The notes below the pieces were generated by a model, which saw only the letters and a list, made by a program, of their open reading frames with translations, did no database searches and was not told where the DNA came from. DNA of 64,000 nucleotides from a virus, in the IMG/VR virus record IMGVR_UViG_3300050821_006672, positions 32,001 to 96,000 of that record; one strand, 5' to 3'. The position numbers and the translations under genes are program-made. The stretch's first letter is position 1. Each line of letters starts with the position of its first letter. Positions 2,826-62,996 of the stretch are shown here, in pieces.

Positions 2826-3494
2826 TCAATCTGTACTTTCCCACGCCGCTATGCAAACAGGCGTAACGCCTCTTGCCAGTTCCTTCATGGCGTCAGCGTA
2901 AACCCTTATTTCATACTGTGCATGGGTGTCACAGCGCAGAGTTAAAAATCGAAGTAGATTGAGTAGATTCACCGTTGCAAACATATGAGAGTAGGTCGCA
3001 ACCGGCAATACCGACCGCGCTAGTTCGCGGGGAACATCCTGCGCCAAAAGAGAACGATACGCTGCAAATGCCGCACGGCAACTGTGATCGATCATGGATG
3101 GGACTAACATGTCGCGTTCAGTAGACAAGTCACGACCTTGTTTGTTCGATTTCGACTGTGATCCAATATGTTCAGGCCTTGGTACGTAGAACACCTCAGG
3201 CAATTCTTTGTATCTAGCACTCAACTCGTTGTAACTGAAAGTTCTGTGGCGATGCCACTGCCGAAAGACAAAGATCGGAGCCATTACCTCGAACGTAAAC
3301 GTCACTGCTTCGAACGGTGTAGTGTGCTTGTGTTTCCACAAGTAGTTGATCAGGCGTGTATCAGATTTCTCATCCTCACCTGCGCGCCACGCAGCATCGT
3401 AAGACACGCGCGCAGCCCGCACTACTGACAGGTCGGAACCCATACTATCGACAAGTCGTACAAAACCGTGATCTAGCACGTCAATTTTTTGCAT
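2826..3494 (-). CDS. thyX: FAD-dependent thymidylate synthase
   Basis: ThyX motifs AARVSY, HTTPFE, RHRTFSYNELSARY, ELARSVLP and HAQYEIR. Confidence 0.96.
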   Translation of the reverse strand: MQKIDVLDHGFVRLVDSMGSDLSVVRAARVSYDAAWRAGEDEKSDTRLINYLWKHKHTTPFEAVTFTFEVMAPIFVFRQWHRHRTFSYNELSARYKELPEVFYVPRPEHIGSQSKSNKQGRDLSTERDMLVPSMIDHSCRAAFAAYRSLLAQDVPRELARSVLPVATYSHMFATVNLLNLLRFLTLRCDTHAQYEIRVYADAMKELARGVTPVCIAAWESTD

Positions 3495-3718
3495 TGTTGC
3501 TCTCCAAGTTGGAAATCTCGCGGTTAAGATACCATCTCGCCTTTTTCAGGTCCTCAAGTGCCGAATCTTTCTTTCCGGCTCGGCAGATGTACTTGACACA
3601 GTTCCCAAGCGGGAAATTAAGACCCCACGCCTCGATAACCTTGATCGCTTCGTAAAGGTTGTCGGCACCGCCGTAGTTGTGGAGGATGGTTGATCTTTTC
3701 AGATGGGCTGTCTGCCAT
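3481..3718 (-). pseudogene. DUF3310-family (T7 gp1.7-like nucleotide kinase) gene with a +1 frameshift
   Basis: ATG at 3718 reads MADSPSEKINHPP. One extra A (CCA CAAC TAC instead of CCA CAC TAC) shifts the frame. The shifted frame continues YGGADNLYEAIKVIEAWGLNFPLGNCVKYICRAGKKDSALEDLKKARWYLNREI to the TGA at 3481. Span is 238 nt (3n+1). Confidence 0.8.
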
Positions 3719-9468: not shown

Positions 9469-10116
9469 ATGGTGAATACGTTCCGTCCAATTCGAGAGCG
9501 TGCAGAGCTGTTGCTTGTTAAGCAAGCCTTGGCCATCAAGGCCGGTTGTGTTTACGCCTTATGCGATAGTAAAGGCTACGCATTCTACGTTGGCAAGACG
9601 ATACGCCCAAAGCGGCGATTTGCTGAACATGTATGGTCTTTGAAAGGAGGTCATGCGAACGTTGCCTTGCACAAGAAGGTAACGGAGCTTGGTGATGATA
9701 TTCGTGTTGCCATATTGACTTACGGTCGGACATCAGAGGAATTAAATAAGTTAGAAAGAGAGAACATTGCCCGCCGTCCCTGGACATTGAATTTGATTGG
9801 AGCGGATCATTGGGCATGGAGTTCCCGTCATGACACCAAGCCTTGGATGGCGGGTACTGGGGTACGAATGCCGTCTCAGTTACTTTTAGAGGGTTGCAGT
9901 AAAGGTTTTCGACAATTCGTTGCTCGTGACCTAAAAAGAATGAATGATGTCGATCGCTGTCGTATGGAAATTGGTATTTTTCAGAAGCTACCATTTTTTA
10001 GACAGAAAAGAGCAGAGAAGTGGTATGCTATAGTATATTGGAAACTCCTTAAATTTGTGGAAGCGGCTGCTAAAGCAGGTATTGGTTATGGCCCAATCAT
10101 TGTTTCTGGGAACTGA
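9469..10116 (+). CDS. GIY-YIG endonuclease (free-standing, homing-type)
   Basis: GCVYAL...FYVGKT...RRFAEH...LE...LN motif; sits immediately upstream of terS. Confidence 0.75.
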   Translation: MVNTFRPIRERAELLLVKQALAIKAGCVYALCDSKGYAFYVGKTIRPKRRFAEHVWSLKGGHANVALHKKVTELGDDIRVAILTYGRTSEELNKLERENIARRPWTLNLIGADHWAWSSRHDTKPWMAGTGVRMPSQLLLEGCSKGFRQFVARDLKRMNDVDRCRMEIGIFQKLPFFRQKRAEKWYAIVYWKLLKFVEAAAKAGIGYGPIIVSGN

Positions 10117-27807: not shown

Positions 27808-28004
27808 ACGAACCCGAGGAATATCTGCTTCAGTTCTTTGCTTACAGCCATCTTAAGCCTGAACTACAAGAGTTCAGCAAGCCATTTGGGGAACTTGCAA
27901 GCTCGCTTGTTGTAATGCTCCCCCGCAATCCCGAGCGAACGACAGCGCTTCGCAAGCTGCTAGAGGCCAAGGACTGCGCAGTTCGGGCTAAATTGTATAA
28001 GTAA
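27804..28004 (+). CDS. small phage helical-hairpin protein, possibly Acb2/Tad1-hairpin-like
   Basis: LQFFAYSHL...SKPFGELA...LPRNPERTTALRKLLEAKDCAVRA. Confidence 0.6.
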   Translation: MNEPEEYLLQFFAYSHLKPELQEFSKPFGELASSLVVMLPRNPERTTALRKLLEAKDCAVRAKLYK

Positions 28005-31000
28005 TGCAACCTGCTTTAAGTACCCTCCCCAACTCTGGTCTTCCACTTGCTAGGAAGCCTGTGGAAGACCAGCTTGTTCGCGCGGCGGGACTTATGGTCG
28101 TAACGCCGAACGGCGAGGCGCTATTTCTGCGATATGCGCCCGACCACGATCACAGCGGCGAGTGGGCTTGGCCGGCAGGAGGGCTAGAAGGCGATGAGGA
28201 AGCACGTGACGCAGCGGTCCGGGAAACCCGTGAAGAAACCGGGTGGATACCAAATGAAGAAATCAAGGAAGTCGATAGCTCTCAAGACGAGATCGATTTT
28301 ACGACGTTTGCGACAACTACAGGCAACCAGTTCATCCCTGAATTGAGCAGCGAACACGATAGCTGGTGCTGGGCGCCTCTTACTAACCCTCCTGAGCCTT
28401 TGCACCCCGGCGTAAAGCAGCTGTTGGCTAACGATCAGGCGCCTATTGCTCATCCCGCCGCTGCAAACATTGCCTCGCGCTCCGAACTTAATTCTATTGG
28501 ACCACCTTCTAAGCAGCCCAAAGAGACGCGCGCCATCAACGTCGCTTACGCGCATGGCGGGACTACTGGGCCCGAAGCTAAGCAGTCGTCTCAGGCAAAT
28601 CGCTACATAGACTCCGGTGGCTTGACGGAACACGACCGCGAGCGAACAGGAAAGAGCAAAGCCGTGTTGGGGAAAGATGCAGTGAAGAAGGAAGCGAGCA
28701 AGGGCCGTTTCTTTGATAGTGCGAGCGATGCTGGCGTTATTAACTACAAAGGCTATGAGATTCGTGCCGTACCTGGTGGCGATTTTCGTGTCTACAAAAA
28801 CGGACGCGAAAAAAAGAATATGTACAGCCTTTCATTAGCTGATGCTAAGCAAGGCATTGATTTTGTTGCTGGCGTCGAGAACGTAGAGCGAGAAGAGGGG
28901 CCGCTTCAACGAAACAAACTTAGCAGAGACGCCGAATACGTCGAAAAGCCTCATATTGGCCGCCTTCCGCCTCGCGAAGCTGAGCGATTGTCGCGGGATG
29001 CGGCTGAGGATGCCTCACAGCAAGTCGAGGCTTACAAGAAAGCTTTGCATGAGGGGAAAATTACTCGAAAGGAATTCGACGGTTTTATGGAAGCTCTCGG
29101 CGAGAAAAATCTGAGTGAGCAGCACAAGGAAGCTTTCAAGAATCGTCCTGCCAAAGACGCTGAGGACTACCGCTCTGAGCGAGGTTTTGTCGCTAAGCTT
29201 ACCGACGAAAAGGGCAGCACAATTGAAACCTCGCCGCTAATGATTTCGCGTAATAGTGCGCAGCGATGGCTCGACGAAAAGGCAGCAAAGTTGAAGCGCC
29301 TCGGCCGCGCGGTGCAAGGTACTATCCGCGAAAGTTTTATGGACCCTGCTTACATTAATGCCGACTCGATTGCCTTCGATGAAGGTTCTGTCCGCACTAC
29401 CGACCCAGACGGCCGCCTTCACGTCTCGACTACCAACATCTCCAAAGCAGTAGTCAATCCTTACAAGGGCAGTGAAATACCGGATTATGAGAAGCTCGGC
29501 TTAGAGCCCGACAAAATTTATCACCTGTATCGCGATCCGGACGAGTTAGCGAAAGCGGCCCCGACGTTCAATAATCTCCCCCTGCTCAAGCAGCATGTCC
29601 CTATTACTGCGGACACCCACAAGCCTGAGCTTGTATTAGGCTCGACGGGGACAGACGCTTCTTTCGAACATCCTTTCCTTAAGAATAGCCTGGTTCTGTG
29701 GAGTAAGGACGGTATTGACGATGTTACGTCCAATAAGAAAAAAGAACTGTCGTCGGCATATCGTTACATAGCAGATATGACGCCTGGTACTTGGGAAGAC
29801 CCAGAGACCGGCGAGCAGAAACCCTTTGATGGAATAATGAGGAATATCGTGGGCAATCACGTCGCCCTCGTAAAGGAGGGTCGTGCGGGTCACGACGTAG
29901 TTGTAGGAGACAGTGCAGCCGGATTGGTGGCCGGACGTAAACGAAAGAGGCGGGTCATGAGCACTATGACAAAAACGGCCGCCAATACGGTACTCGTTCT
30001 GAGTTCGTACATTCGGCCCAAACTGGCCCAGGATCAGAAGGTGAATCTGCTTCCTGTGGTTGAGGGCCTGACGGCCAAAAACTTTGATGAGCGTCGTTCC
30101 GGTATTATCCGCGAGGTCCGGAAATTGACGAAAGGAAAGCTCGCGAACGACGCTTCGATTGGTGAGATCGCAGAAGTACTCGATTTGCTCGAAGCCCACC
30201 CCGATACTGGCGAGGACGCGCCTGTTACGGATGTACAGGAGGCAATGATGTCAGAAATGACGGATGTGCCTGGCGCCTCTAACGTTAGTGGTCAGGGCAG
30301 TCCAGGCGGCGACCGGCGCGCGCGTGATACTCGTCGTGCTCGCGATACTTACGATCGTAAAGCACGGGATCGGAAAGCGCGAGATGCTTTCCCCCCTCCA
30401 CAGGACCGGGAAGATGATCGCGATCAGGAAGGCGAAGATCGTCGCGCGCGCGATGCTGATCCTACTGCCGCAGTCGAGTCCTTCTTGAAGGACAAGGTTA
30501 GCGGCTCCGATCTCCAGCACGTCTGCAATCTCATGCGCGGGGGCGCTACTCAAGACGATACGCTTTCGGATGGGGGTGACACTGAGCCCCATGCCGAGGG
30601 CGAAGAGGTTCTCGAGGAGCTAGGCGCTTCGCATGGTGCAGAGGACAATCCCGATGATGTACCGGATCGCAGCGATATTGATCGCTCTCGCGAATGGCAC
30701 GTCGGCGAGGGCGAGGAACCTGGTGCTGGTCATTCCGGCAAGACGGTTCAGGACCGCAACGCTTACGACAAACGCGGCGCGAAGGATCGCCGCGCAAAGG
30801 ATCGCAAACGGGCTCACGACGAGCCGCCTCCGTTCAAGGGAATGCCGAAAGTGGGTGAAGGTCCCGATAAGCGAGCCATGGATACCGCAGTAAAGATTGC
30901 GGTCGAACAGGCTACCAACAATCAGCGCGAAATCCGCAAGGCCGAGCGCGATGTGCGTCCGTGGGTTGGTGAGCTCGCGATGGACGAGGCCAAGTGCCCC

Positions 31001-31207
31001 GAAGATGTCTACGCCGCTGCTCTCAAGGCGCGTAACATCAAGATCGATGGAGTTCATCCGTCGGCTTACTCTGTCATCCTCAAAAACCTTCCGCTGCCGG
31101 GTCAGGGCGCAACTCGTAGTTCGTCGCCGCGTGTGGCTATGGATGCCGCAACTCGTGCTTCGTTCAACGATCGCTTCCCGAACGTTGGCCGGATTGGCCT
31201 GTTGTAA
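28004..31207 (+). CDS. DUF2213 head maturation protease/scaffold protein with an N-terminal Nudix hydrolase and inserted modules
   Basis: Nudix box [25 protein letters not shown]2213 core [15 protein letters not shown]...FNNLPLL...KELSSAYRY...[13 protein letters not shown]. Charged scaffold C-terminus. Confidence 0.9.
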
Positions 31208-31221
31208 AGGAGGGCCAAACC

Positions 31222-32217
31222 ATGCCTGATTTCCCCAACCAAGTTAACACTGTTCCGGCTCCGGCCGTAGAGGGCGACTTTGCCGACACCAATCCGCGGT
31301 TCACGGCTGCGGCTGGTCCTGGCGGACTGGTCGCGGGTCCTAGTGGCGTTACCATCGGTCGTTTCTGCTGGTTCTTCGGTAGCACTTTCGACCCCGATCA
31401 AACGCCTCAGCAGGTCACGAACACTTTGCAAGGTGTTCAGCCGTTTGGTGGTACCAATGCGACGGCTCAGACTAACGTCGTGGGTCTCGTGGGACGCGCT
31501 CAGCAGGGCCTGATCACTACCTACCTGACGGCCTCGGGAATGCTCATTCCTGCTGGCTTCCCGGTCACGGTGTTCAGCGGTGGCGATTTCTTCGTTAAGA
31601 ATACTGGCACGGGTGCGGCTATCCTTGGAATGAAGGCTTACGCCAACTTCTCCAATGGTGCCGTTACGTTCGCTGCGACGGGTTCTCCCACAACCGGCTC
31701 TTGCACCGGCTCTATCGGCCCGCAGACGGTCTCGTTCACGGGCTCGATCGCCGGTAACGTGCTGACGGTCTCAGCCGTTTCGTCGGGCACGCTCGTCGCA
31801 GGCGCCGTCCTTTCCGGCGGCACAGGTATCGTAACGAACACTACGATCGTCTCGCAGATTTCGGGAACGACGGGAGGTGTTGGAAGCTACGCCGTCAACA
31901 TTCCCGAGCAGACGGTGGCTTCAGCGGGTCTTACAGGCTCCTACGGCCTCCTGACGGTCGCTACGATGACCTCGGGCACCCTTGGGGTAGGCGATACCCT
32001 GACAGGTACGGGTGGTGGCGGTGTCACTGCGGGCACGTACATCTCGCAACTCGGGACGGGTACCGGCGGGGCTGGCACCTACTACGTCTCGCCGACACAG
32101 ACTGTGTCTGTGGGCACGGTAATTACGTTCGCGTTGAACGTTGAAACTAAATGGTACGCCATGAGTGGTGGTCTGGCGAATGAACTTGTAAAAATCAGCT
32201 CGCACCCGTTGGGCTGA
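31222..32217 (+). CDS. capsid cement/stabilising protein with inserted G/T/S-rich double module
   Basis: FPNQVN...[15 protein letters not shown] and [16 protein letters not shown]; lies between DUF2213 and the major capsid gene. Confidence 0.8.
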
Positions 32218-32234
32218 GGCCAGGAGAAACCACT

Positions 32235-33353
32235 ATGAACTTCCAAGAAGCTCGTGCAGCTTGGCTGGCCGACGCGCCTGAGTTTGCGGCTCGCGGTGTA
32301 AGCCTTCCTAACGTCCTCGCCTATCTGCCGGAAGAGTTCAAGCGGGATGAACATCTCGCCATGGACGCGATGATGCAGATCGGTATGGACGCGCAACCTA
32401 CATTGACGACCGCGGTCAACTCCGCGGTCCCGGCGTTCCTCACTACGATGATCGACCCTGCGGTATTCAAAATCCTGTTTGCGCCAAACAGGGCAGCGAT
32501 CATTATGGGCGAGGTCCGAAAAGGAACGTGGCTGGATGAAACAATCATGTTCCCCACCATCGAGTATACAGGTGAGGTCTCATCCTACGGTGACTTTGCC
32601 GACTCGGGTCGTGCTGGCGTCAACACCAACTGGCCCCAGCGGCAGGCCTACCTGTTCCAGACTATCAAGCAGTACGGTGATCGCGAACTGGAGCGTGCTG
32701 GTCTCGCAAAGATCAACTACGTCTCCGAGATCGATCAGTCCGCTGCTTTGGCACTGAATAAGTTCAGCAACTTCTGCTACTTCTTCGGCGTTGGGAATGG
32801 TTTGCAGAACTACGGTCTGATCAACGATCCCAACCTGACGGCTTCGCTTACGCCTGCAACCAAGGCTGCTGGTGGTACCAAGTGGATTACAACTGGCGGC
32901 GTCATGAATGCGACGGCCAACGAGGTCTACGCGGATATTCAGGCGATGTACTACCAGCTTATCCAGCAGACTGCGGGTCTCGTCGAGGCCGACAGCAAAC
33001 TGGTGTTGGCGATGTCGCCTGGATCGGAGGTCGCGTTGACGATTACCAACAGCTTCAACGTCAACGTGTTTGATCTTCTCAAGAAGAACTTCCCGAACAT
33101 TCGCTTCGAGACGGCGGTTCAGTACGGTGTTACGACTACCGCCAACTCTCAGGGCAATGCGGCGGGCAACATCGTCCAGCTTATCGCTGAGGAGATCGAA
33201 GGCCAGCAAACCGGCTACTGCGCGTTCAACGAGAAGATGCATGCACAACCGATCGTGCGCTTGCTATCGTCCTTCCGGCAGAAGGTGTTGGCTGGTGTTT
33301 GGGGCACAGTGATTCGGCAGCCTCTAGGAATCGTAAACATGCTGGGTGTGTGA
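32235..33353 (+). CDS. major capsid protein (DUF2184 type)
   Basis: DAQPTLTTAVNSAVPAFLTTMIDP, GEVRKGTW, GEVSSYGDF and NYGLINDPNL; strong RBS and codon bias. Confidence 0.93.
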   Translation: MNFQEARAAWLADAPEFAARGVSLPNVLAYLPEEFKRDEHLAMDAMMQIGMDAQPTLTTAVNSAVPAFLTTMIDPAVFKILFAPNRAAIIMGEVRKGTWLDETIMFPTIEYTGEVSSYGDFADSGRAGVNTNWPQRQAYLFQTIKQYGDRELERAGLAKINYVSEIDQSAALALNKFSNFCYFFGVGNGLQNYGLINDPNLTASLTPATKAAGGTKWITTGGVMNATANEVYADIQAMYYQLIQQTAGLVEADSKLVLAMSPGSEVALTITNSFNVNVFDLLKKNFPNIRFETAVQYGVTTTANSQGNAAGNIVQLIAEEIEGQQTGYCAFNEKMHAQPIVRLLSSFRQKVLAGVWGTVIRQPLGIVNMLGV

Positions 33354-33354
33354 A

Positions 33355-33469
33355 TTCTTGCGGCGGCGTTGAAAGCAGAAACGCCCCCATCACCAACTAC
33401 GATGGGAGAAGACGCGCCCGAAAGGGAATATGCAAATCTTTAGTCGGAGTAGCGCCCGGCCCGCAAGAA
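33355..33469 (+). ncRNA. structured RNA resembling the skipping-rope motif
   Basis: Closing stem TTCTTGCGG/CCGCAAGAA, 5' hairpin GGCGTT-GAAAGCAGA-AACGCC, 3' hairpin GTCGG-AGTAGCGC-CCGGC, variable linker with a CCC-GAAA-GGG hairpin. The family name is from memory of the motif, not from a search. Confidence 0.55.
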
Positions 33470-33488
33470 CTTTTAAGAGGAGTAAATC

Positions 33489-34013
33489 ATGGTAGCGCGT
33501 GTAAGTGCGAAGAGGCAAGAACCAATCGAGGACCGGGTCAAGCCAGTCCCGCAGCCTGCGTCAGGTACTGAAACGGTAGTCATTGGCTGCAAACTGCCCA
33601 ACGGCATCATGTTGCGTCAGTTCCGCATGGTGAAGAAGACCCGCAATATCGGCGGCCACTACTTTGATGAGCAAATGGCTGAGGATACGGGCCGACGTTT
33701 TACTGTCCGGGGGCCAGCCGTACCTTTTGGCCAAATTCCCAACATCCAGATTGTCGGGGGTTACGCCTTGACCCCCGGCGTTCCCCAAGACTTGGCTGAA
33801 ATCTGGTTCGATCAGAACAAGGATGCCGATTGCGTCGTCAATCAGCTTATGTTCTGGGAAAGTGACGTGGATCGCGCTGCGGCTCGCGCTCGTGAACTCA
33901 ATGCAGTCAGGTCGGGCCTAGAGCCGGTCGATCCCAATAAGACTATTCCTGGTTTGGGAAAAGTCACTAAGGCCGATTTGAGCGATAAGGATATGGGTCT
34001 TGCGAACAGCTAA
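33489..34013 (+). CDS. post-capsid structural/assembly protein
   Basis: VVIGCKLPNGIML...GGYALTPGVP...SGLEPVDP; GAGGAG RBS; typical position after the major capsid gene. Confidence 0.7.
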   Translation: MVARVSAKRQEPIEDRVKPVPQPASGTETVVIGCKLPNGIMLRQFRMVKKTRNIGGHYFDEQMAEDTGRRFTVRGPAVPFGQIPNIQIVGGYALTPGVPQDLAEIWFDQNKDADCVVNQLMFWESDVDRAAARARELNAVRSGLEPVDPNKTIPGLGKVTKADLSDKDMGLANS

Positions 34014-34028
34014 CCGCACGCGTATGAT
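34000..34028 (+). promoter_or_regulatory. putative sigma70-type promoter
   Basis: TTGCGA-N17-TATGAT; shares GCGTATGATTAG with the promoter at 52850. Confidence 0.6.
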
Positions 34029-34175
34029 TAGGTTGTAGCGGGTTCAAGGTGTAATAGCTTTGTACTAATGTGGTGTCCGGCGATGTCGGAGTTAACACTG
34101 ACAAAAGTCTTGGTGTGCCCAACGGCAGGAATTGCAAACGGTTCGCCCATGCAAAACCTAACCAAGAGCCCGCGA
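34029..34175 (+). ncRNA. structured intergenic RNA (family unknown)
   Basis: GCGGGTTC/GAGCCCGC closing stem, TCCGGC-GAT-GTCGGA hairpin, TCTTGGT/ACCAAGA stem and TGCC-CAAC-GGCA hairpin, directly after a promoter. Confidence 0.45.
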
Positions 34176-34183
34176 GGATTTAG

Positions 34184-34615
34184 ATGGGCGTTCAAGTAGG
34201 CTTCAACCTAACAGCGTGGCGGGCGCGTTATCCGGAGTTCGATGACGTACCCGATCCGCTGATTCAGCAGTACTTTACTGAGGCCACGATCTTTCATCGT
34301 AATGATGGTGGTGGTCCTGTGAGGGATAGCAATCAGCAGTTGGTCTTGTTGAATATGGTGGTTGCTCACATTTGTAAGCTGAATGCGCCTGTGCGTGGCG
34401 AACCTTCTCCTGATATCGTCGGTCGTATCTCCAATGCAAGCGAGGGTAGCGTGAGCGTCGCTACGGAAATGGACTTGCCTCCTGGGTCTGCACAATGGTG
34501 GGGACAAACCAAATATGGGATTGCGTACTGGACTGCATCCGCGCCGTTCCGACAAATGAGATATAGGGTTGGTCGTCAGCGAAACTTCAACCCATGGTAT
34601 CCGGCAGGTTATTGA
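34184..34615 (+). CDS. head-tail adaptor (DUF4054)
   Basis: WRARYPEF, LLNMVVAHI, VGRISNASEGSVSV and WWGQTKYG. Confidence 0.9.
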   Translation: MGVQVGFNLTAWRARYPEFDDVPDPLIQQYFTEATIFHRNDGGGPVRDSNQQLVLLNMVVAHICKLNAPVRGEPSPDIVGRISNASEGSVSVATEMDLPPGSAQWWGQTKYGIAYWTASAPFRQMRYRVGRQRNFNPWYPAGY

Positions 34616-34624
34616 TTTTTCTGT

Positions 34625-34828
34625 GTTGGGGTTAGCTGGGATCGGGCTAGGTATGTTATGTTTGAGGTACGGTATGGTCTTTTTCCTTAGTCAATTTTAC
34701 CTTTGTGTTGAGTTGTGGCTAGCTAAGGTGTGGTATGTTACGTTGAGGTGAGCTGCGGTAGGTTTCGTTTTCGGGTAAGTTGAGTTCTGCTAAGCTCAGG
34801 TTTGGTACATTCTGGTAAGGTAAGTTTT
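34625..34828 (+). repeat. three tandem 5-nt-period G-N-Y/NN arrays (candidate guide RNAs)
   Basis: A 34625-34680: GTTgg GGTta GCTgg GATcg GGCta GGTat GTTat GTTtg(a) GGTac GGTat GGTct. B 34707-34771: GTTga GTTgt GGCta GCTaa GGTgt GGTat GTTac GTTga GGTga GCTgc GGTag GTTtc GTTtt. C 34774-34828: GGTaa GTTga GTTct GCTaa GCTca GGTtt GGTac ATTct GGTaa GGTaa GTTtt. Confidence 0.88.
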
Positions 34829-34847
34829 TGCTTCTCGTATGGTAGAG

Positions 34848-34980
34848 ATATCGCGGCGACTAACGCGATAGAAACGCGGCACCAATACACGAACCTCCTT
34901 CGCGTTCGGTGTCGCTGAAAGGTGACCCCTGTAACTCGCGTTTCCGGGCTTAGTCGGCTGGGCGCGAAGGAGACACAGCT
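34848..34980 (+). promoter_or_regulatory. structured 5' leader with an anti-Shine-Dalgarno element
   Basis: Stems 34857-63/34950-56 and 34871-78/34937-44, plus a GTCGCT-GAAA-GGTGAC hairpin. CTCCTTCGCG (34895-904) is complementary to CGCGAAGGAG (34963-72), which contains the RBS. Confidence 0.65.
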
Positions 34981-35598
34981 ATGGTAGCCAAGGCTAAGGT
35001 AATTCACATCAATGAGCCGACTGATGGGGGCAACGAGGCAATCGGCTATTCGGAACCTTACTCGGTTCGCGTCGCGCTAGAAGGCGCAGCCGATTACCTG
35101 TTTCATCGGTACAACTGCGAATCAGTTGAGGCTAAAAGCAACGCGGCAAAGGGTTCGAAGGCCAAGAAGACTGACGACATTGAGAGTTACGTTTGGCGGA
35201 CGAACGACGGGCAACTTGCCATTCCTGGCGAACATCTTCGCGGAGCGATCATCAAAGCCGCTAAGTTCCGCCAAGACCCGCGCTCTCCGCGTAAGTCGGC
35301 AATGGATTTGTTTAAGGCCGGCATCGTGGTTACGACAGGATTAGCCCCAGTGGGAAAGAAGGATTGGGATTACCTCCACAAGGGGCGGGTAGTTGTGCAC
35401 GGAAGCGCTATCCCCCGCGTCCGTCCTGCGCTTCGGCAGGGTTGGAAGGTAGCTTTTGATGTCTCAGTAATCTTGCCGGAGTACATTGATAAAAACTCTC
35501 TGCGAGAGACTATCGAGGCTGCGGGTCGTCTTTGTGGCCTTGGCGACTATCGACCAACCTTCGGCCGATTTGGGATTATTTCTTACCAATCAGCTTAG
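34981..35598 (+). CDS. stand-alone Cas7/RAMP-superfamily RNA-binding protein (Vipr-like)
   Basis: First beta strand VRVALEGAADYLFH, then LAIPGEHLRGAIIKAA (equivalent to the RAMP IPGSSLKGALR motif) and C-terminal glycine-rich loop GRLCGLGDYRPTFGRF. AAGGAG RBS. No other cas gene in the window. Confidence 0.8.
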   Translation: MVAKAKVIHINEPTDGGNEAIGYSEPYSVRVALEGAADYLFHRYNCESVEAKSNAAKGSKAKKTDDIESYVWRTNDGQLAIPGEHLRGAIIKAAKFRQDPRSPRKSAMDLFKAGIVVTTGLAPVGKKDWDYLHKGRVVVHGSAIPRVRPALRQGWKVAFDVSVILPEYIDKNSLRETIEAAGRLCGLGDYRPTFGRFGIISYQSA

Positions 35599-35662
35599 GT
35601 CTGGTGTGGTTAGTTGGGGTCAGGTGGTGTTTGGTAAGATTTGATCGGGTAAGGTAAGGTCT
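35598..35662 (+). repeat. fourth 5-nt-period G-N-Y/NN array, starting at the stop codon of the RAMP-like gene
   Basis: GGTct GGTgt GGTta GTTgg GGTca GGTgg TGTtt GGTaa GATtt GATcg GGTaa GGTaa GGTct, then TTG. Confidence 0.88.
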
Positions 35663-35730
35663 TTGCGTATGTCTAAGTTAGTCTAGGTTCTGTTCCCCCA
35701 GTCCTCCCCCCGCAGCAGGGCCTAGATGTA

Positions 35731-35793
35731 CCCGCGTCGCTCCCTTCCCCCTCCCCCCGAGCCTGGGAGCGACGCGGGGAACTCTTTCGAGAG
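35731..35793 (+). other. 14-bp perfect hairpin with a C-rich loop, plus a TTCG-loop hairpin
   Basis: CCCGCGTCGCTCCC (35731-44) pairs with GGGAGCGACGCGGG (35765-78). CTCT-TTCG-AGAG at 35782-93. Confidence 0.7.
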
Positions 35794-35802
35794 GACCAGC
35801 CC

Positions 35803-36033
35803 ATGATTACAGGGTTATTCACCGATGGGCAGTCCGTTGAACTTTCGCTTCCTTGTGACGCGACACTTGCAGTGCGTTATCTAGGGAATGAGGACGACGT
35901 TCTTGTGCCGAACGGCTCTTGCGGTGTTGTGGTATCAGTGCTTGAGTATAATCTAAATACGTTGGCTACTGTCAAATTCGATGGACTCAAGCGTGATCTT
36001 GTAATCCCCACCAAGTATTTGAAGGCATGTTGA
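35803..36033 (+). CDS. small hypothetical protein (SH3-like beta pattern)
   Basis: GAGGA RBS; VPNGSCGVVVSV...ATVKFDG. Confidence 0.5.
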   Translation: MITGLFTDGQSVELSLPCDATLAVRYLGNEDDVLVPNGSCGVVVSVLEYNLNTLATVKFDGLKRDLVIPTKYLKAC

Positions 36034-36179
36034 TATGAGCGAGTGCCTTTTCAAGCTTTCAGAGGCTCACGGAGCATGGTGCTACAGTTGGCGGCCTGTT
36101 CCTATGGTCGAAGGTGCTCCACGCCTCAAGAAAGTTCCATTTGGCTACGTTTTGATGCGTTACGAAGGGAAGCGTTTAC

Positions 36180-36716
36180 ATGGCTGACCGCAAATACCTC
36201 CCGACTTTCGCCGATCTCGTTGATAGGCTCTGCATTACGCAGATGAAAGCGATCTTCATCCCTGAACGGCAGGGCGAATACGTTGAAGAAATGTCGTTGA
36301 TTATGCATGACATCGATCTTATCTTGGAAAGTCAAGCTAAGACGATTGCCGCTACTGACGTTCGTGCGATGCTTGTGCTTATGTTGAGCAACCGTTTCAT
36401 ATGGGAGAATGAAACAAAAGCGCGAGCGGGCGGGACGGATCAGGACAAGCTTCTTAAATTGACTCATAGTATAAATGGCGTGAGGAATACAGCTAAGAAT
36501 GCATTGGCCCATATTGATGGCGGTCGGAGAGACTTCAAAACGGATTGCTTTGCTGCGGAGTTAGTTGCTGACTTCGGTAATTGGAATGTATTTGGAGTGC
36601 AGAACGGCGAGGCTCGATGGGAAACCGATCAGAGAAATTATACTCAACTGGCGGATAGACGGGATAAATCTGTGCATGGTGGGGCTGGGCGTGTTCTGCC
36701 CTCGTCGGATTATTAG
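36180..36716 (+). CDS. helical hypothetical protein (DUF4254-like), first gene of the sugar island
   Basis: ADLVDRLCI...NRFIWENE...INGVRN pattern. Confidence 0.6.
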   Translation: MADRKYLPTFADLVDRLCITQMKAIFIPERQGEYVEEMSLIMHDIDLILESQAKTIAATDVRAMLVLMLSNRFIWENETKARAGGTDQDKLLKLTHSINGVRNTAKNALAHIDGGRRDFKTDCFAAELVADFGNWNVFGVQNGEARWETDQRNYTQLADRRDKSVHGGAGRVLPSSDY

Positions 36717-36721
36717 GCAAG

Positions 36722-37336
36722 ATGCTCCAAATCGTAGCTAGAAACCGAATAACGCGCAGCGACTTGCAGGAGTTTACGCAGCGCGTTGCCGACGCGTTCA
36801 ATGCTGGCGAAATCCACGCTCCCGTCCACCTTAGCGGCGGCAATGAAGATCAGCTGATTGATATCTTCTCGGAGATCGCTCCAACCGACTGGGTATGCTC
36901 AACATGGCGTAGCCATTATCATGCGATCCTCAAAAACATTCCTCAAGAACAACTGATGTCGGACATTCGTGCGGGACGCTCGATCTCATTGTGCTATCCA
37001 GAACACCGTCTTATTTCCTCGGCAATTGTTGCGGGCTGTTTGCCCATTGCGGTGGGTCTTGCCTGGTCCATCAAGAATGCCGAGAAGGATGAGCACGTCT
37101 GGGCCTTCTGTGGTGATATGGCAGCGACAACCGGAATATTCTCCGAGTGCACTCGATACGCTGAGAGCTATCGCCTTCCCGTTACGTTCATAATTGAGGA
37201 TAATGGCAAGTCGGTCTGTACGAATACCAAACAAGTTTGGAACGGACAACACGATAATTGGCAAAGCAATGTGCGGTATTACTCCTACAAACTGCCATGG
37301 CCCCATAGTGGTGCCGGCAAACGAGTGAACTTCTAA
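36722..37336 (+). CDS. TPP-dependent dehydrogenase/transketolase E1 alpha-like subunit (short form)
   Basis: HLSGGNE, STWRSHYH, SAIVAG and TPP motif GDMA...IEDN. Confidence 0.88.
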   Translation: MLQIVARNRITRSDLQEFTQRVADAFNAGEIHAPVHLSGGNEDQLIDIFSEIAPTDWVCSTWRSHYHAILKNIPQEQLMSDIRAGRSISLCYPEHRLISSAIVAGCLPIAVGLAWSIKNAEKDEHVWAFCGDMAATTGIFSECTRYAESYRLPVTFIIEDNGKSVCTNTKQVWNGQHDNWQSNVRYYSYKLPWPHSGAGKRVNF

Positions 37337-37374
37337 CCGGCGAGTGGTGACGCCCCTCTTCCGGGAACAGGAAC

Positions 37375-37959
37375 ATGAACCTTAACCTTTGGGATTCAAG
37401 CAGAGGCACCGTTACAATCGGATTGCCGATGGACCTAGCTGCGGGGGCTTCGCAGACGGTGGCCGGTCAGGTACAGCTATCTTCTGCTGGGGTAAGCCCC
37501 GGTGCGACAGGCGCCGACAACGTGCTGGCTGTTTTCTCAATCCCGCCGGGCTCATTTGCGGCTGCTGGGAACGGGCTTTACATTGCGGCCTATGGCACAT
37601 TTGCTAACAACGGCAACAACAAGCGGGTGAAGATCATATTCAATCCTGCAACTGCCGTAGTTGGAGCGACTGTTGGGGCAGGCGGCACAACTATCGCTGA
37701 CACAACGACTTACTCCACCTCTGCGCTGTCCGCTTTCACGTTGGAGGCTACAGTTTTCAAATATGGTGCGGCGGGGAGCAATACGCAGATAGGCATAAAT
37801 GGTGAAAACACCGTAGCAGCGGTTAGCGAGACCCTCATTGTGCCTCAGCTTATTACTGCAAATGAGGCTGCGGTGATTCTCATTGCGGTTACTGGGAATG
37901 CTGGATCGGCCGTCGCAGACATCCTATTGAATGCGCTTGCGATAACTCCTATTTCGTAG
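37375..37959 (+). CDS. A/G/T-rich putative virion protein
   Basis: Composition resembles the decoration genes at 14-24 kb. Confidence 0.55.
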   Translation: MNLNLWDSSRGTVTIGLPMDLAAGASQTVAGQVQLSSAGVSPGATGADNVLAVFSIPPGSFAAAGNGLYIAAYGTFANNGNNKRVKIIFNPATAVVGATVGAGGTTIADTTTYSTSALSAFTLEATVFKYGAAGSNTQIGINGENTVAAVSETLIVPQLITANEAAVILIAVTGNAGSAVADILLNALAITPIS

Positions 37960-62672: not shown

Positions 62673-62996
62673 ATGCAAGTCGTCCCGCTTCAATCCGTTC
62701 CTAACCAGATTGTGAACGTTGGCTTGACGAATCAGCAGTGCACCGTTTCGCTTCATCAGAAAACGACTGGTTTGTTCTTTGATCTATCAGTTGCGGGCGG
62801 GGTTATCATTACAGGGGTGCTTTGCCTCGATCAGAATTTGTTAGTACGCAATACCTATCTTGGATTTGTAGGCGACCTGGCCTTTTTCGATACTCAGGGA
62901 ACCAATGATCCTGACTACACAGGTCTCGGCGGGCGCTACCAATTGGTCTACCTAGCGCCCGGTGACATTACGGGCCTTCCGCCTGGGGTAAGTTGA
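62673..62996 (+). CDS. small baseplate (plug/wedge-associated) protein
   Basis: VPLQSVPNQ...YLGFVGDLAFFDTQGTNDPDYTGLGGRYQLVY. Confidence 0.8.
   Translation: MQVVPLQSVPNQIVNVGLTNQQCTVSLHQKTTGLFFDLSVAGGVIITGVLCLDQNLLVRNTYLGFVGDLAFFDTQGTNDPDYTGLGGRYQLVYLAPGDITGLPPGVS

What the first reader, a model, noticed from the sequence alone, without database searches (positions are those of the whole stretch)
34625..34828. Decoding the arrays: discrete guide units with a shared 3' end and predicted gapped targets
Seen in sequence: the arrays are separate units set off by phase shifts or T-rich linkers, and they end alike (A GGTAC GGTAT GGTCT TTTT; C GGTAA GGTAA GTTTT TG; D GGTAA GGTAA GGTCT TTG; B GGTAG GTTTC GTTTT). 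This suggests a constant 3' handle or processing signal. Variable dinucleotides are A: gg ta gg cg ta at at tg ac at ct; B: ga gt ta aa gt at ac ga ga gc ag tc tt; C: aa ga ct aa ca tt ac ct aa aa tt; D (35598-35662): ct gt ta gg ca gg tt aa tt cg aa aa ct. Inference: if every third target base is skipped, targets look like GAnGTnTAnAAnGTnATnACnGAnGAnGC (B) or CTnGTnTAnGGnCAnGGnTTnAAnTTnCG (D). Such a 2-of-3 register could align with codons and ignore wobble positions, making targeting resistant to synonymous escape. I saw no self-target by eye, but that search was not exhaustive.
Basis: partly seen in the sequence, partly recalled or inferred. Interest (0 to 1): 0.85.

Follow-up and report, generated by a model that had tools for sequence, protein, structure and literature searches.

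The report
Phage VIPR guide-RNA arrays

Summary
Four + strand tracts of 11, 13, 11 and 13 pentamers (G 46/48, G 26/48, Y 48/48, N, N) flank a 205-aa ORF at 34981-35598, and nothing else in the 109-kb phage genome resembles them.

The ORF folds as a Cas7-type RAMP. It aligns to the experimentally studied Vipr of Escherichia phage phiSUSP1 (28% identity, E 5e-14). Of 88 related loci, 83 carry same-strand pentamer tracts beside the gene, with unrelated NN letters.

This matches VIPR (bioRxiv 10.64898/2026.04.26.720920, .720927, 2026.10.15.759431). Vipr polymerises on GGY-NN vrRNA, and the NN pairs read DNA with one base skipped, usually the codon wobble base.

I found no target for this phage's own four guides in its genome, five relatives' genomes, IMG/VR, metagenomes or GTDB genomes. 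Matches were no better than shuffled guides.

The skip-1 rule does hold in this clade. Relatives' guides hit rivals' vipr genes. One 18-unit guide (L011/L012) matches this phage's virion gene at 62882-62929 in 29 of 32 positions (shuffled maximum 23), with skipped bases on wobble positions.

Differences from SUSP1: relaxed second G, short U-rich tails, and no conserved accessory (vap) gene.

Earlier notes of this scan that hold VIPR-type words number 307, in at least 251 genomes. Verdict: new member of a known kind.

The parts
34625..34685 (+). vrRNA A repeat tract: 8 in-phase G-N-Y-NN units, one extra A (34665), then 3 units (GGTAC GGTAT GGTCT) that are probably a 3' handle, then the first Ts of the T-rich run that follows
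   Evidence: no stable fold (z -0.14)
34686..34706 (+). Short U-rich tail of vrRNA A. It contains CTTAGTCAATTTT, also found in the tails of close relatives (L002/L016: GGATACTTAGTCAATTTT)
34707..34771 (+). vrRNA B repeat tract, 13 units. The last three (GGTAG GTTTC GTTTT) are probably handle. It abuts C across a 2-nt CG junction
34774..34828 (+). vrRNA C repeat tract, 11 units (one unit reads ATT). It ends GGTAA GGTAA GTTTT
34829..34980 (+). Structured leader between array C and the vipr start codon. Role not resolved here
   Evidence: MFE -53.7 kcal/mol, z -1.5
34981..35598 (+). vipr gene: 205-aa single-domain Cas7-like RAMP with G-loop GLGDYRPTFGRF
   Evidence: Foldseek top hits are all Cas7/Csm3/Cmr4. 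BLASTP to the phiSUSP1 ORF flanked by that phage's GGY-NN arrays gives E 5e-14. PHROG 4652. 6137 homologues
35598..35662 (+). vrRNA D repeat tract, 13 units, starting on the last base of the vipr stop codon. It ends GGTAA GGTAA GGTCT
35663..35790 (+). Tail of D plus two long hairpins with C-rich loops. Candidate cassette terminator or stabiliser
   Evidence: MFE -57.2 kcal/mol, z -3.9, 0 of 200 shuffles fold as well
62882..62929 (-). Predicted target site of a rival phage's vrRNA (first 16 units of the last guide of L011/L012). It lies inside the 107-aa virion structural gene 62673-62996 and encodes FFDTQGTNDPDYTGLG
   Evidence: 29/32 NN positions under skip-1, against 19-21 under other skips or in other genomes and a shuffled maximum of 23. 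Skipped bases fall on codon position 3. PHROG 349

Best explanation
The region 34625-35790 is a minimal VIPR (Viral Interference Programmable Repeat) cassette. It has one vipr gene (a Cas7-like RAMP) and four vrRNA genes, three upstream (A, B, C) and one downstream (D), all on the + strand inside the phage's head-neck operon.

By homology with the SUSP1 system, the mechanism would run as follows. The tracts are transcribed and cut into RNAs of about 55-90 nt. One Vipr protomer binds per pentamer, forming a helical filament. The G-N-Y bases are flipped into protein pockets and the two N bases are presented. The NN pairs then read double-stranded DNA as NN-x-NN-x, and the bound complex represses transcription of the target.

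The targets are expected to be genes of rival phages or other mobile elements. The skipped base usually falls on the codon wobble position, so synonymous mutations give no escape.

Shown here: the architecture, the RAMP fold, homology to SUSP1 Vipr, conservation of the pattern with hypervariable NN, and natural skip-1, wobble-aligned targets of relatives' guides. One of those targets lies in this phage.

Inferred only: transcription, processing, RNP assembly and repression at this locus, and what guides A-D target.
For: Architecture:
- Tracts of 11, 13, 11 and 13 units fall within the published 9-16 range.
- They are unique in the genome and unstructured as RNA.

Protein:
- The AF2 model (pLDDT 72) gives 49 PDB hits at E<=1e-3. 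Those listed are Cas7-family subunits of type III, IV and VII effector complexes or Cas7-11.
- BLASTP to phiSUSP1 Vipr gives 28% identity over 162 aa, E 5e-14.
- In that alignment, the G-loop D and R and the thumb R-P that bind GGY in the cryo-EM structure are present, and they are invariant in 37 homologues.

Family:
- 83 of 88 related loci have same-strand tracts, with the nearest tract a median of 31 nt from the gene. In-phase run length has its mode at 11 units. Sequences are unrelated.

Targeting rule in this clade:
- Eleven-unit windows of relatives' guides gave 87 hits with at least 9 perfect units under skip-1. The reversed-order control gave 2, and skips 0, 2 and 3 gave 5, 9 and 7.
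- L071's last 11 units match the KKTDDVESYV codons of rivals' vipr at 21/22, but its own vipr at only 16/22.
- The L011/L012 guide matches this phage at 29/32 but its own homologous gene at only 23/32.
- In the three cases worked through, the skipped base sits on the wobble position.

Literature.
Against: - No target of this phage's own guides was found. Best skip-1 matches in its own genome (65-73%), in 570 kb of relatives' loci and in four whole relatives' genomes were no better than shuffled guides.
- Exact-seed scans of IMG/VR, JGI metagenomes and GTDB genomes gave zero hits or chance-level hits. These lay in unrelated genes, mostly with the skipped base off the wobble position.
- The second G of GGY is G in only 54% of units.
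- No SUSP1-like pseudoknot tail is present, and B and C abut with only 2 nt between them.
- No vap accessory gene is present.
- No promoter or terminator was predicted for the individual RNAs.
- There are no expression data.
Confidence: 0.9

Rival explanations
1. A decaying or retired VIPR cassette. The gene and tracts descend from a working system, but the guides have drifted (second G lost in nearly half of the units) and no longer direct anything useful.
For: Position 2 is G in only 26/48 units, against about 76-82% in relatives. No target was found for any of the four guides. There is no accessory gene.
Against: The ORF is intact, and in the SUSP1 alignment the residues at the GGY-binding positions are present and invariant in the clade. 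G1 (96%) and Y3 (100%) are kept almost perfectly over 48 units, which neutral drift would not do. The preprint reports frequent internal degeneracy and relaxed consensus variants in working types. Failure to find targets is expected for an uncultured phage whose rivals may be unsampled.
Confidence: 0.07
2. A regulatory RNA track for an oligomeric RNA-binding protein that controls the phage's own late operon (TRAP-like 3+2 geometry). On this view it is not a DNA-targeting guide system.
For: The period-5, 11-13 unit geometry resembles the 11 (G/U)AG-NN repeats bound by TRAP (from my own knowledge, and my first hypothesis). The tracts lie inside the structural operon, directly before and after a gene.
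Against: The adjacent protein is a RAMP homologous to SUSP1 Vipr, not a TRAP-like ring. The NN letters are hypervariable between relatives while the context genes are not shared. Relatives' NN strings spell other phages' coding sequences under skip-1 far beyond controls. A cis-regulatory track would not do that.
Confidence: 0.02
3. A G-rich structural element (two-tetrad G-quadruplex string, or bent DNA) with no guide function.
For: GG every five bases could in principle form two-quartet G4s.
Against: Of the 48 units, 22 lack GG. The RNA folds no better than shuffles. The pattern is strand-specific and always sits beside a RAMP gene.
Confidence: 0.01

Closest known systems
Type II VIPR of Escherichia phage SUSP1 / phiSUSP1 (Vipr + vap1 + four vrRNAs); bioRxiv 10.64898/2026.04.26.720920, 10.64898/2026.04.26.720927, 10.64898/2026.10.15.759431
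   Same: Both have a roughly 200-aa single-RRM RAMP with the same G-loop motif (GxGD[WYF]RPxFGRF) and thumb R-P. Both have vrRNAs of 9-16 pentamers on both sides of the gene, on its strand. NN is hypervariable. Neither has a CRISPR array. In the clade, targeting is skip-1 and wobble-aligned, includes rivals' vipr genes, and self sites score lower than rival sites.
   Different: Protein identity is only 28%. The second G is relaxed (G-N-Y here). Tails are short, U-rich and clade-specific instead of a roughly 40-nt pseudoknot. B and C abut. No vap1 homologue is present, and no conserved neighbour gene exists in 88 loci. The cassette sits in the head-neck structural operon. Targets of this phage's guides are unknown.
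'Staggered' vrRNA arrays and alternative repeat consensuses (NNNGG, YNNNG, NNNNG) mentioned for other VIPR types in the same preprint
   Same: Relatives carry long in-phase tracts (up to 119 units) in which one guide ends where the next begins. The B/C junction here is almost tail-less. The GGY consensus is relaxed.
   Different: Here the conserved letters are G1 and Y3 (YNNGN in the preprint's notation), a combination not listed in the text I could read. The preprint's figures and tables were not available, so the type could not be assigned.
Class 1 CRISPR-Cas backbone subunits (Cas7 / Csm3 / Cmr4; type VII Cas7)
   Same: The RAMP fold is shared (Foldseek E down to 8.5e-6). According to the VIPR preprints, the protein polymerises along a guide RNA and flips bases out periodically.
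   Different: There is no CRISPR repeat-spacer array, no other cas genes and no adaptation module. The flipping period is 5 nt with 3 bases sequestered, rather than every sixth base.

Membership tests
VIPR (Vipr + vrRNA) | Small stand-alone RAMP (RRM core, G-loop, thumb) homologous to Vipr | tested here: met
   AF2 model plus Foldseek: the listed hits are Cas7-family subunits. BLASTP to the phiSUSP1 ORF that is flanked by that phage's GGY-NN arrays gives E 5e-14. In that alignment the residues at the SUSP1 GGY-binding positions (G-loop D and R, thumb R) are present and invariant in the clade; the SUSP1 Trp is Tyr here and Phe or Tyr in the clade.
VIPR (Vipr + vrRNA) | Non-coding tracts of about 9-16 GGY-NN pentamers beside vipr on its strand | tested here: met
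   Tracts of 11, 13, 11 and 13 units lie within 0-153 nt of the gene. The consensus is relaxed at G2 (54% G). The preprint allows 'a related consensus'.
VIPR (Vipr + vrRNA) | GGY conserved and NN hypervariable among related systems | tested here: met
   Across 249 tracts from the 88 related loci (83 of which carry a tract), positions 1-3 are G 94-100%, G 76-82% and Y 92-100%. Positions 4-5 are mixed, and tract sequences are not alignable between loci.
VIPR (Vipr + vrRNA) | Conserved structured 3' tail after the repeat tract | tested here: inconclusive
   All four tracts end alike and run into T-rich sequence. A's tail shares CTTAGTCAATTTT with close relatives. Other relatives have hairpin tails. 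No SUSP1-like pseudoknot is present, and B has at most a 12-nt tail. There is no Rfam model for vrRNA.
VIPR (Vipr + vrRNA) | Accessory vap gene next to vipr (six vap families over seven types) | tested here: not met
   There is no homologue of SUSP1 vap1, or of the gene after vipr in phage DSL-LC04, in this genome. Apart from vipr and spurious ORFs overlapping vipr or the arrays, no ORF cluster is shared by more than 6 of 89 loci. The preprint calls two genes 'typical', not universal, so this does not exclude membership.
VIPR (Vipr + vrRNA) | NN dinucleotides match natural DNA targets with one skipped base, usually the wobble base, and self sites score below 80% | tested here: inconclusive
   Met for the clade: skip-1 gave 87 hits against 2-9 in controls, and the L071, L079 and L011 guides hit rivals' vipr or this phage's virion gene. 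For this locus, there is no self-target of 80% or more, but no external target was found either.
VIPR (Vipr + vrRNA) | vrRNAs are expressed, processed and co-purify with Vipr, and the RNP represses targets | not testable with these tools
   This needs sRNA-seq, pull-down and reporter assays.
CRISPR-Cas (class 1) | CRISPR repeat-spacer array and further cas genes (cas1/2, cas5, cas6, large subunit) | tested here: not met
   The 64-kb window has no direct-repeat array with a period of 25-40 nt. The ten ORFs scanned around the locus, from 28004 to 37959, are phage structural or unassigned genes.
TRAP-type RNA-binding attenuation | An 11-mer TRAP-fold ring protein, and (G/U)AG triplets in a leader that competes with a terminator | tested here: not met
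   The adjacent protein is a RAMP. The triplet is G-N-Y, and no terminator or antiterminator was found on the + strand.

The most novel reading that the evidence does not exclude
This very abundant Vipr clade (more than 6000 metagenomic homologues) may be a distinct VIPR type. It would be vap-less, with short U-rich or hairpin tails, abutting or 'staggered' guides and a relaxed G-N-Y scaffold, carried as a two-part cassette in unrelated genome contexts. Related lytic-type phages would use it against each other. Guides silence rivals' vipr genes and virion structural genes, and each phage's own alleles escape by a few non-synonymous changes. This phage would be both armed (guides A-D, targets unsampled) and a target (site 62882-62929).
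Probability: 0.4. Interest if true: 0.5.

Novelty: new member of a known kind. Interest (0 to 1): 0.35.

Why it matters
VIPR is a newly described way of reading DNA with RNA, and a proposed ancestor of CRISPR. Natural examples outside the two studied clades (SUSP1 and P. fulva) show how far the scaffold can vary, and here it varies in three respects: G-N-Y instead of GGY, Tyr or Phe in place of the G2-stacking Trp, and no accessory protein. They also show what the system is used for.

The cross-targeting found here gives independent bioinformatic support, in an unrelated environmental clade, for three published claims. These are the skip-1 rule, its alignment with codon wobble positions, and the 'phage against phage' role, in which self sites score lower than rival sites. 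In this clade, guides are aimed at rivals' vipr motifs and at a conserved motif of a virion protein.

For the finding as submitted, the main value is closure.

Tried and rejected
1. TRAP-like ring-protein track and G-quadruplex string were my first ideas. I dropped them after the fold search and the literature, and because 22 of 48 units lack GG.

2. Rfam and tRNA scans of the window gave nothing. Rfam on 20 related loci, including SUSP1, also gave nothing, so there is no vrRNA model and no hammerheads.

3. Self-targets: the best skip-1 matches were 65-73%, equal to shuffles.

4. IMG/VR exact scans:
   - B units 1-11 and 1-10, and D units 1-10, gave 0 hits.
   - A units 1-8 gave 7 hits (4 distinct sequences). 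They lie in a K+ transporter gene or ORFs I did not identify, none homologous to this phage or to four relatives, and the skipped base is off the wobble position.
   - C units 1-9 gave 1 hit, in an AT-rich phage.
   - C units 1-8 gave 47 hits, mostly one protein family of AT-rich phages, with the skipped base on codon position 1 in 37.

5. Metagenome scans: B 1-11 gave 0 hits. D 3-11 gave 12 hits. Two reach 23/26 (88%), but only 5 of the 8 bases outside the forced seed match, they lie in short ORFs with the skipped base off the wobble position, and I did not follow them further.

6. GTDB genome scans: D 1-11 gave 0 hits. B 2-10 gave 10 hits in unrelated bacterial genes (LacI, HlyD, iPGM and others). 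These are in frame only because the pattern is codon-like.

7. Window guides against 570 kb of relatives' loci and four whole relatives' genomes gave nothing above shuffles.

8. The L044 guide hit in this genome (window 9819-9854) does not extend beyond 8-10 units and is compatible with chance.

9. Apparent minus-strand arrays in GC-rich relatives are mirror readings of GGC-NN tracts, not separate arrays (reasoning).

10. Tools that were not available:
    - The preprint's figures and supplementary tables are not held, so the VIPR type could not be assigned.
    - The host remains unknown.

Full report
**What is there.** The window is bases 32001-96000 of a complete 109,475-bp IMG/VR phage record with direct terminal repeats. 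All nearby genes are on the + strand and belong to the head-neck module:
- a NUDIX-protease fusion;
- a minor head protein and the major head protein;
- a DUF4054/PHROG 302 adaptor gene (34184-34615);
- a 205-aa ORF (34981-35598, PHROG 4652, no Pfam match).

Around that ORF lie four non-coding tracts with strict period 5:
- A: 34625-34680 (8 units, one extra A, then 3 units);
- B: 34707-34771 (13 units);
- C: 34774-34828 (11 units);
- D: 35598-35662 (13 units, starting on the last base of the stop codon).

Over 48 units, position 1 is G in 46, position 3 is a pyrimidine in 48 (T in 46), position 2 is G in only 26, and positions 4-5 are mixed.

In the whole genome, both strands, 11-unit windows with 9 or more G..Y units occur 16 times, all on the + strand. 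In-phase runs of 8 or more units occur only at these tracts. As RNA, the tracts fold no better than shuffled sequence.

**What it is.** Seven, then 80 more, IMG/VR loci encoding 51-69% identical homologues of the ORF were fetched, plus phage DSL-LC04 from GenBank.
- 83 of the 88 loci have at least one same-strand tract of 8 or more units. The nearest tract lies a median of 31 nt from the gene, on either side.
- In-phase run lengths peak at 9-15 units (mode 11) and reach 119.
- Tract sequences are unrelated between loci.

A full-text search for the pentamer pattern led to the preprint describing VIPR systems (read). These consist of a small Vipr RAMP protein plus vrRNAs of 9-16 GGY-NN repeats followed by a 3' tail. 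The NN pairs recognise double-stranded DNA with one skipped base per unit. That base is usually the wobble base of a coding target, and natural targets lie in competing phages and satellites. Two companion preprints give the cryo-EM mechanism and the satellite conflict.

**Membership tests.**
- An AlphaFold2 model of the ORF (37-sequence alignment, pLDDT 72, pTM 0.67) finds Cas7-family RAMPs in the PDB: type VII Cas7, Csm3, Cmr4, type IV and Cas7-11. There are 49 hits at E<=1e-3, the best at 8.5e-6.
- tblastn against GenBank phages hits phiSUSP1 and its relatives. The matching SUSP1 ORF is the 195-aa gene flanked by that phage's own GGY-NN arrays, one upstream and three downstream, as the preprint describes.
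- Pairwise BLASTP gives 28% identity over 162 residues, E 5e-14.
- In that alignment, the G-loop Asp and Arg and the thumb Arg that hold the GGY bases in the cryo-EM structure are present here and invariant in the clade.
- The Trp that stacks on the second G is Tyr here, and Phe or Tyr in relatives. I note, as inference only, that this could go with the relaxed second position.
- The family is very large: 6137 homologues at E<=1e-3 in the metagenomic protein collection.

**Differences from the studied systems.**
- There is no vap gene. Neither SUSP1 vap1 nor the gene following vipr in DSL-LC04 has a homologue in this genome.
- An all-against-all clustering of ORFs from 89 loci found nothing shared by more than 6 loci, apart from vipr itself and spurious overlapping frames. 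In this clade the conserved unit is therefore just vipr plus arrays, dropped into varied contexts.
- Tails are short and clade-specific. Close relatives end their guides with GGATACTT-W-R-T-Y-R-ATTTT, others with small hairpins that show compensatory changes, and the last guide of an array often runs into a U tract.
- In the window, A's tail shares CTTAGTCAATTTT with L002/L016, and B is separated from C by only CG.
I think these last units are handle rather than guide, for two reasons. A's +1 phase shift falls exactly before them. In the one relative's guide with a clear target, the two terminal units (GGTAA GGCAT) are the ones that do not match.
- On that view the guides proper are 8, 10, 8 and 10 units.

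**Targets of this phage's guides.** None was found.
- In its own genome, the best skip-1 matches are 65-73% and equal to shuffled-order guides. The only perfect matches are the trivial skip-3 self-matches. This agrees with the published absence of self-targets.
- Exact-seed scans of IMG/VR, JGI metagenomes and GTDB genomes returned either nothing or numbers of hits expected by chance. The hits lie in unrelated genes, do not extend convincingly beyond the seed, and mostly have the skipped base off the wobble position.
- Mismatch-tolerant local searches of 570 kb of relatives' loci and four complete relatives' genomes were no better than shuffles.

**Does the rule hold in this clade?** Yes.
- I took all 11-unit windows of the 300 tracts in relatives and searched the relatives' loci plus this genome, with arrays masked.
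- At 9 or more perfect units, skip-1 gave 87 hits from 20 guide windows. The same guides in reversed order gave 2. Skips 0, 2 and 3 gave 5, 9 and 7.
- The hits reduce to a few independent cases. All those worked through are in coding sequence with the skipped base on the wobble position.

The independent cases are:
- **(a) L071.** The last 11 units of a tract in L071 spell the antisense of the KK(T/S)D(D/N)VESYV codons of vipr. They match 12 relatives at 21/22 and 15 more at 20/22. L071's own vipr scores 16/22, and this window's vipr 18/22.
- **(b) L079.** A guide in L079 spells the RPAMKAGW motif of vipr.
- **(c) L011/L012, against vipr.** A guide in L011/L012 spells the antisense of the DLLFHRWN motif of vipr.
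- **(d) L011/L012, against this phage.** The last, 18-unit guide of L011/L012 matches this phage at window 62882-62929 (minus strand) in 29 of the first 32 positions. Under other skips or in four other genomes the best score is 19-21, and 200 shuffled guides reach at most 23.

The site in case (d) encodes FFDTQGTNDPDYTGLG in a 107-aa virion structural protein (PHROG 349, 62673-62996). L011/L012 carry their own 53%-identical copy of that gene right next to the array, and its site matches the guide at only 23/32. This phage is thus a predicted victim of a relative's VIPR. The pattern of rival sites scoring above self sites mirrors what the third preprint reports for SUSP1-family phages.

**Verdict.** My word search of this scan's earlier notes returned 307 findings in at least 251 genomes, and the eight shown were all VIPR-type loci in other genomes. 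Two earlier first-reader notes on this genome make the same RAMP-plus-array reading.

This locus is a new member of a known kind, with variant features worth recording: a G-N-Y scaffold, short tails, no vap gene, and a location in a structural operon. Its own targets remain unidentified.

Noticed in passing
window 62882-62929 (- strand), inside ORF 62673-62996: Predicted protospacer-like site for the last vrRNA of a related phage (L011/L012). It matches 29/32 NN positions under skip-1, with skipped bases on wobble positions. The attacker's own copy of the gene matches only 23/32.
   Followed up: yes
L071:2411-2466; L079:3118-3418; L011:2395-2465 (targets: vipr genes of many related loci): Three independent relatives' guides spell conserved Vipr motifs (KKTDDVESYV, RPAMKAGW, DLLFHRWN) of rival phages. 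L071's own vipr has diverged at that site (16/22). The window's vipr scores 18/22 against the L071 guide.
   Followed up: yes
window 35681-35790: Two long hairpins with C-rich loops lie directly after array D (MFE -57.2 kcal/mol, z -3.9). This could be the cassette terminator, an RNA stabiliser, or part of D's tail.
   Followed up: partly
window 36141-36175: A weak 7-unit G-N-Y-like tract (GCTAC GTTTT GATGC GTTAC GAAGG GAAGC GTTTA) overlaps small ORFs 36035-36187 and 36043-36246. It could be chance or a remnant of a fifth guide.
   Followed up: no
L071:1728-2322, L082, L044 and others: Some relatives carry in-phase tracts of 60-119 units without phase shifts. The L071 case shows that an 11-unit guide is embedded at the 3' end of a 30-unit tract, so long tracts are probably concatenated ('staggered') guides.
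   Followed up: partly
window 35803-36033 and 36035-36187: Two small ORFs (76 and 50 aa) lie between array D and the sugar-gene island. They have no Pfam or PHROG match and no homologue in any of 88 related VIPR loci. They are not a conserved vap gene, and their function is unknown.
   Followed up: partly
window 28004-31207: A 1067-aa protein combines an N-terminal NUDIX hydrolase domain with a prohead protease domain (PHROG 2229).
   Followed up: no
L010 (phage DSL-LC04, OR003939.1) 3001-3618: The Vipr homologue of this GenBank phage (55% identical to the window's) is annotated as 'helix-turn-helix transcriptional regulator', which is probably a mis-annotation. GGY-NN arrays lie upstream of it.
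   Followed up: partly
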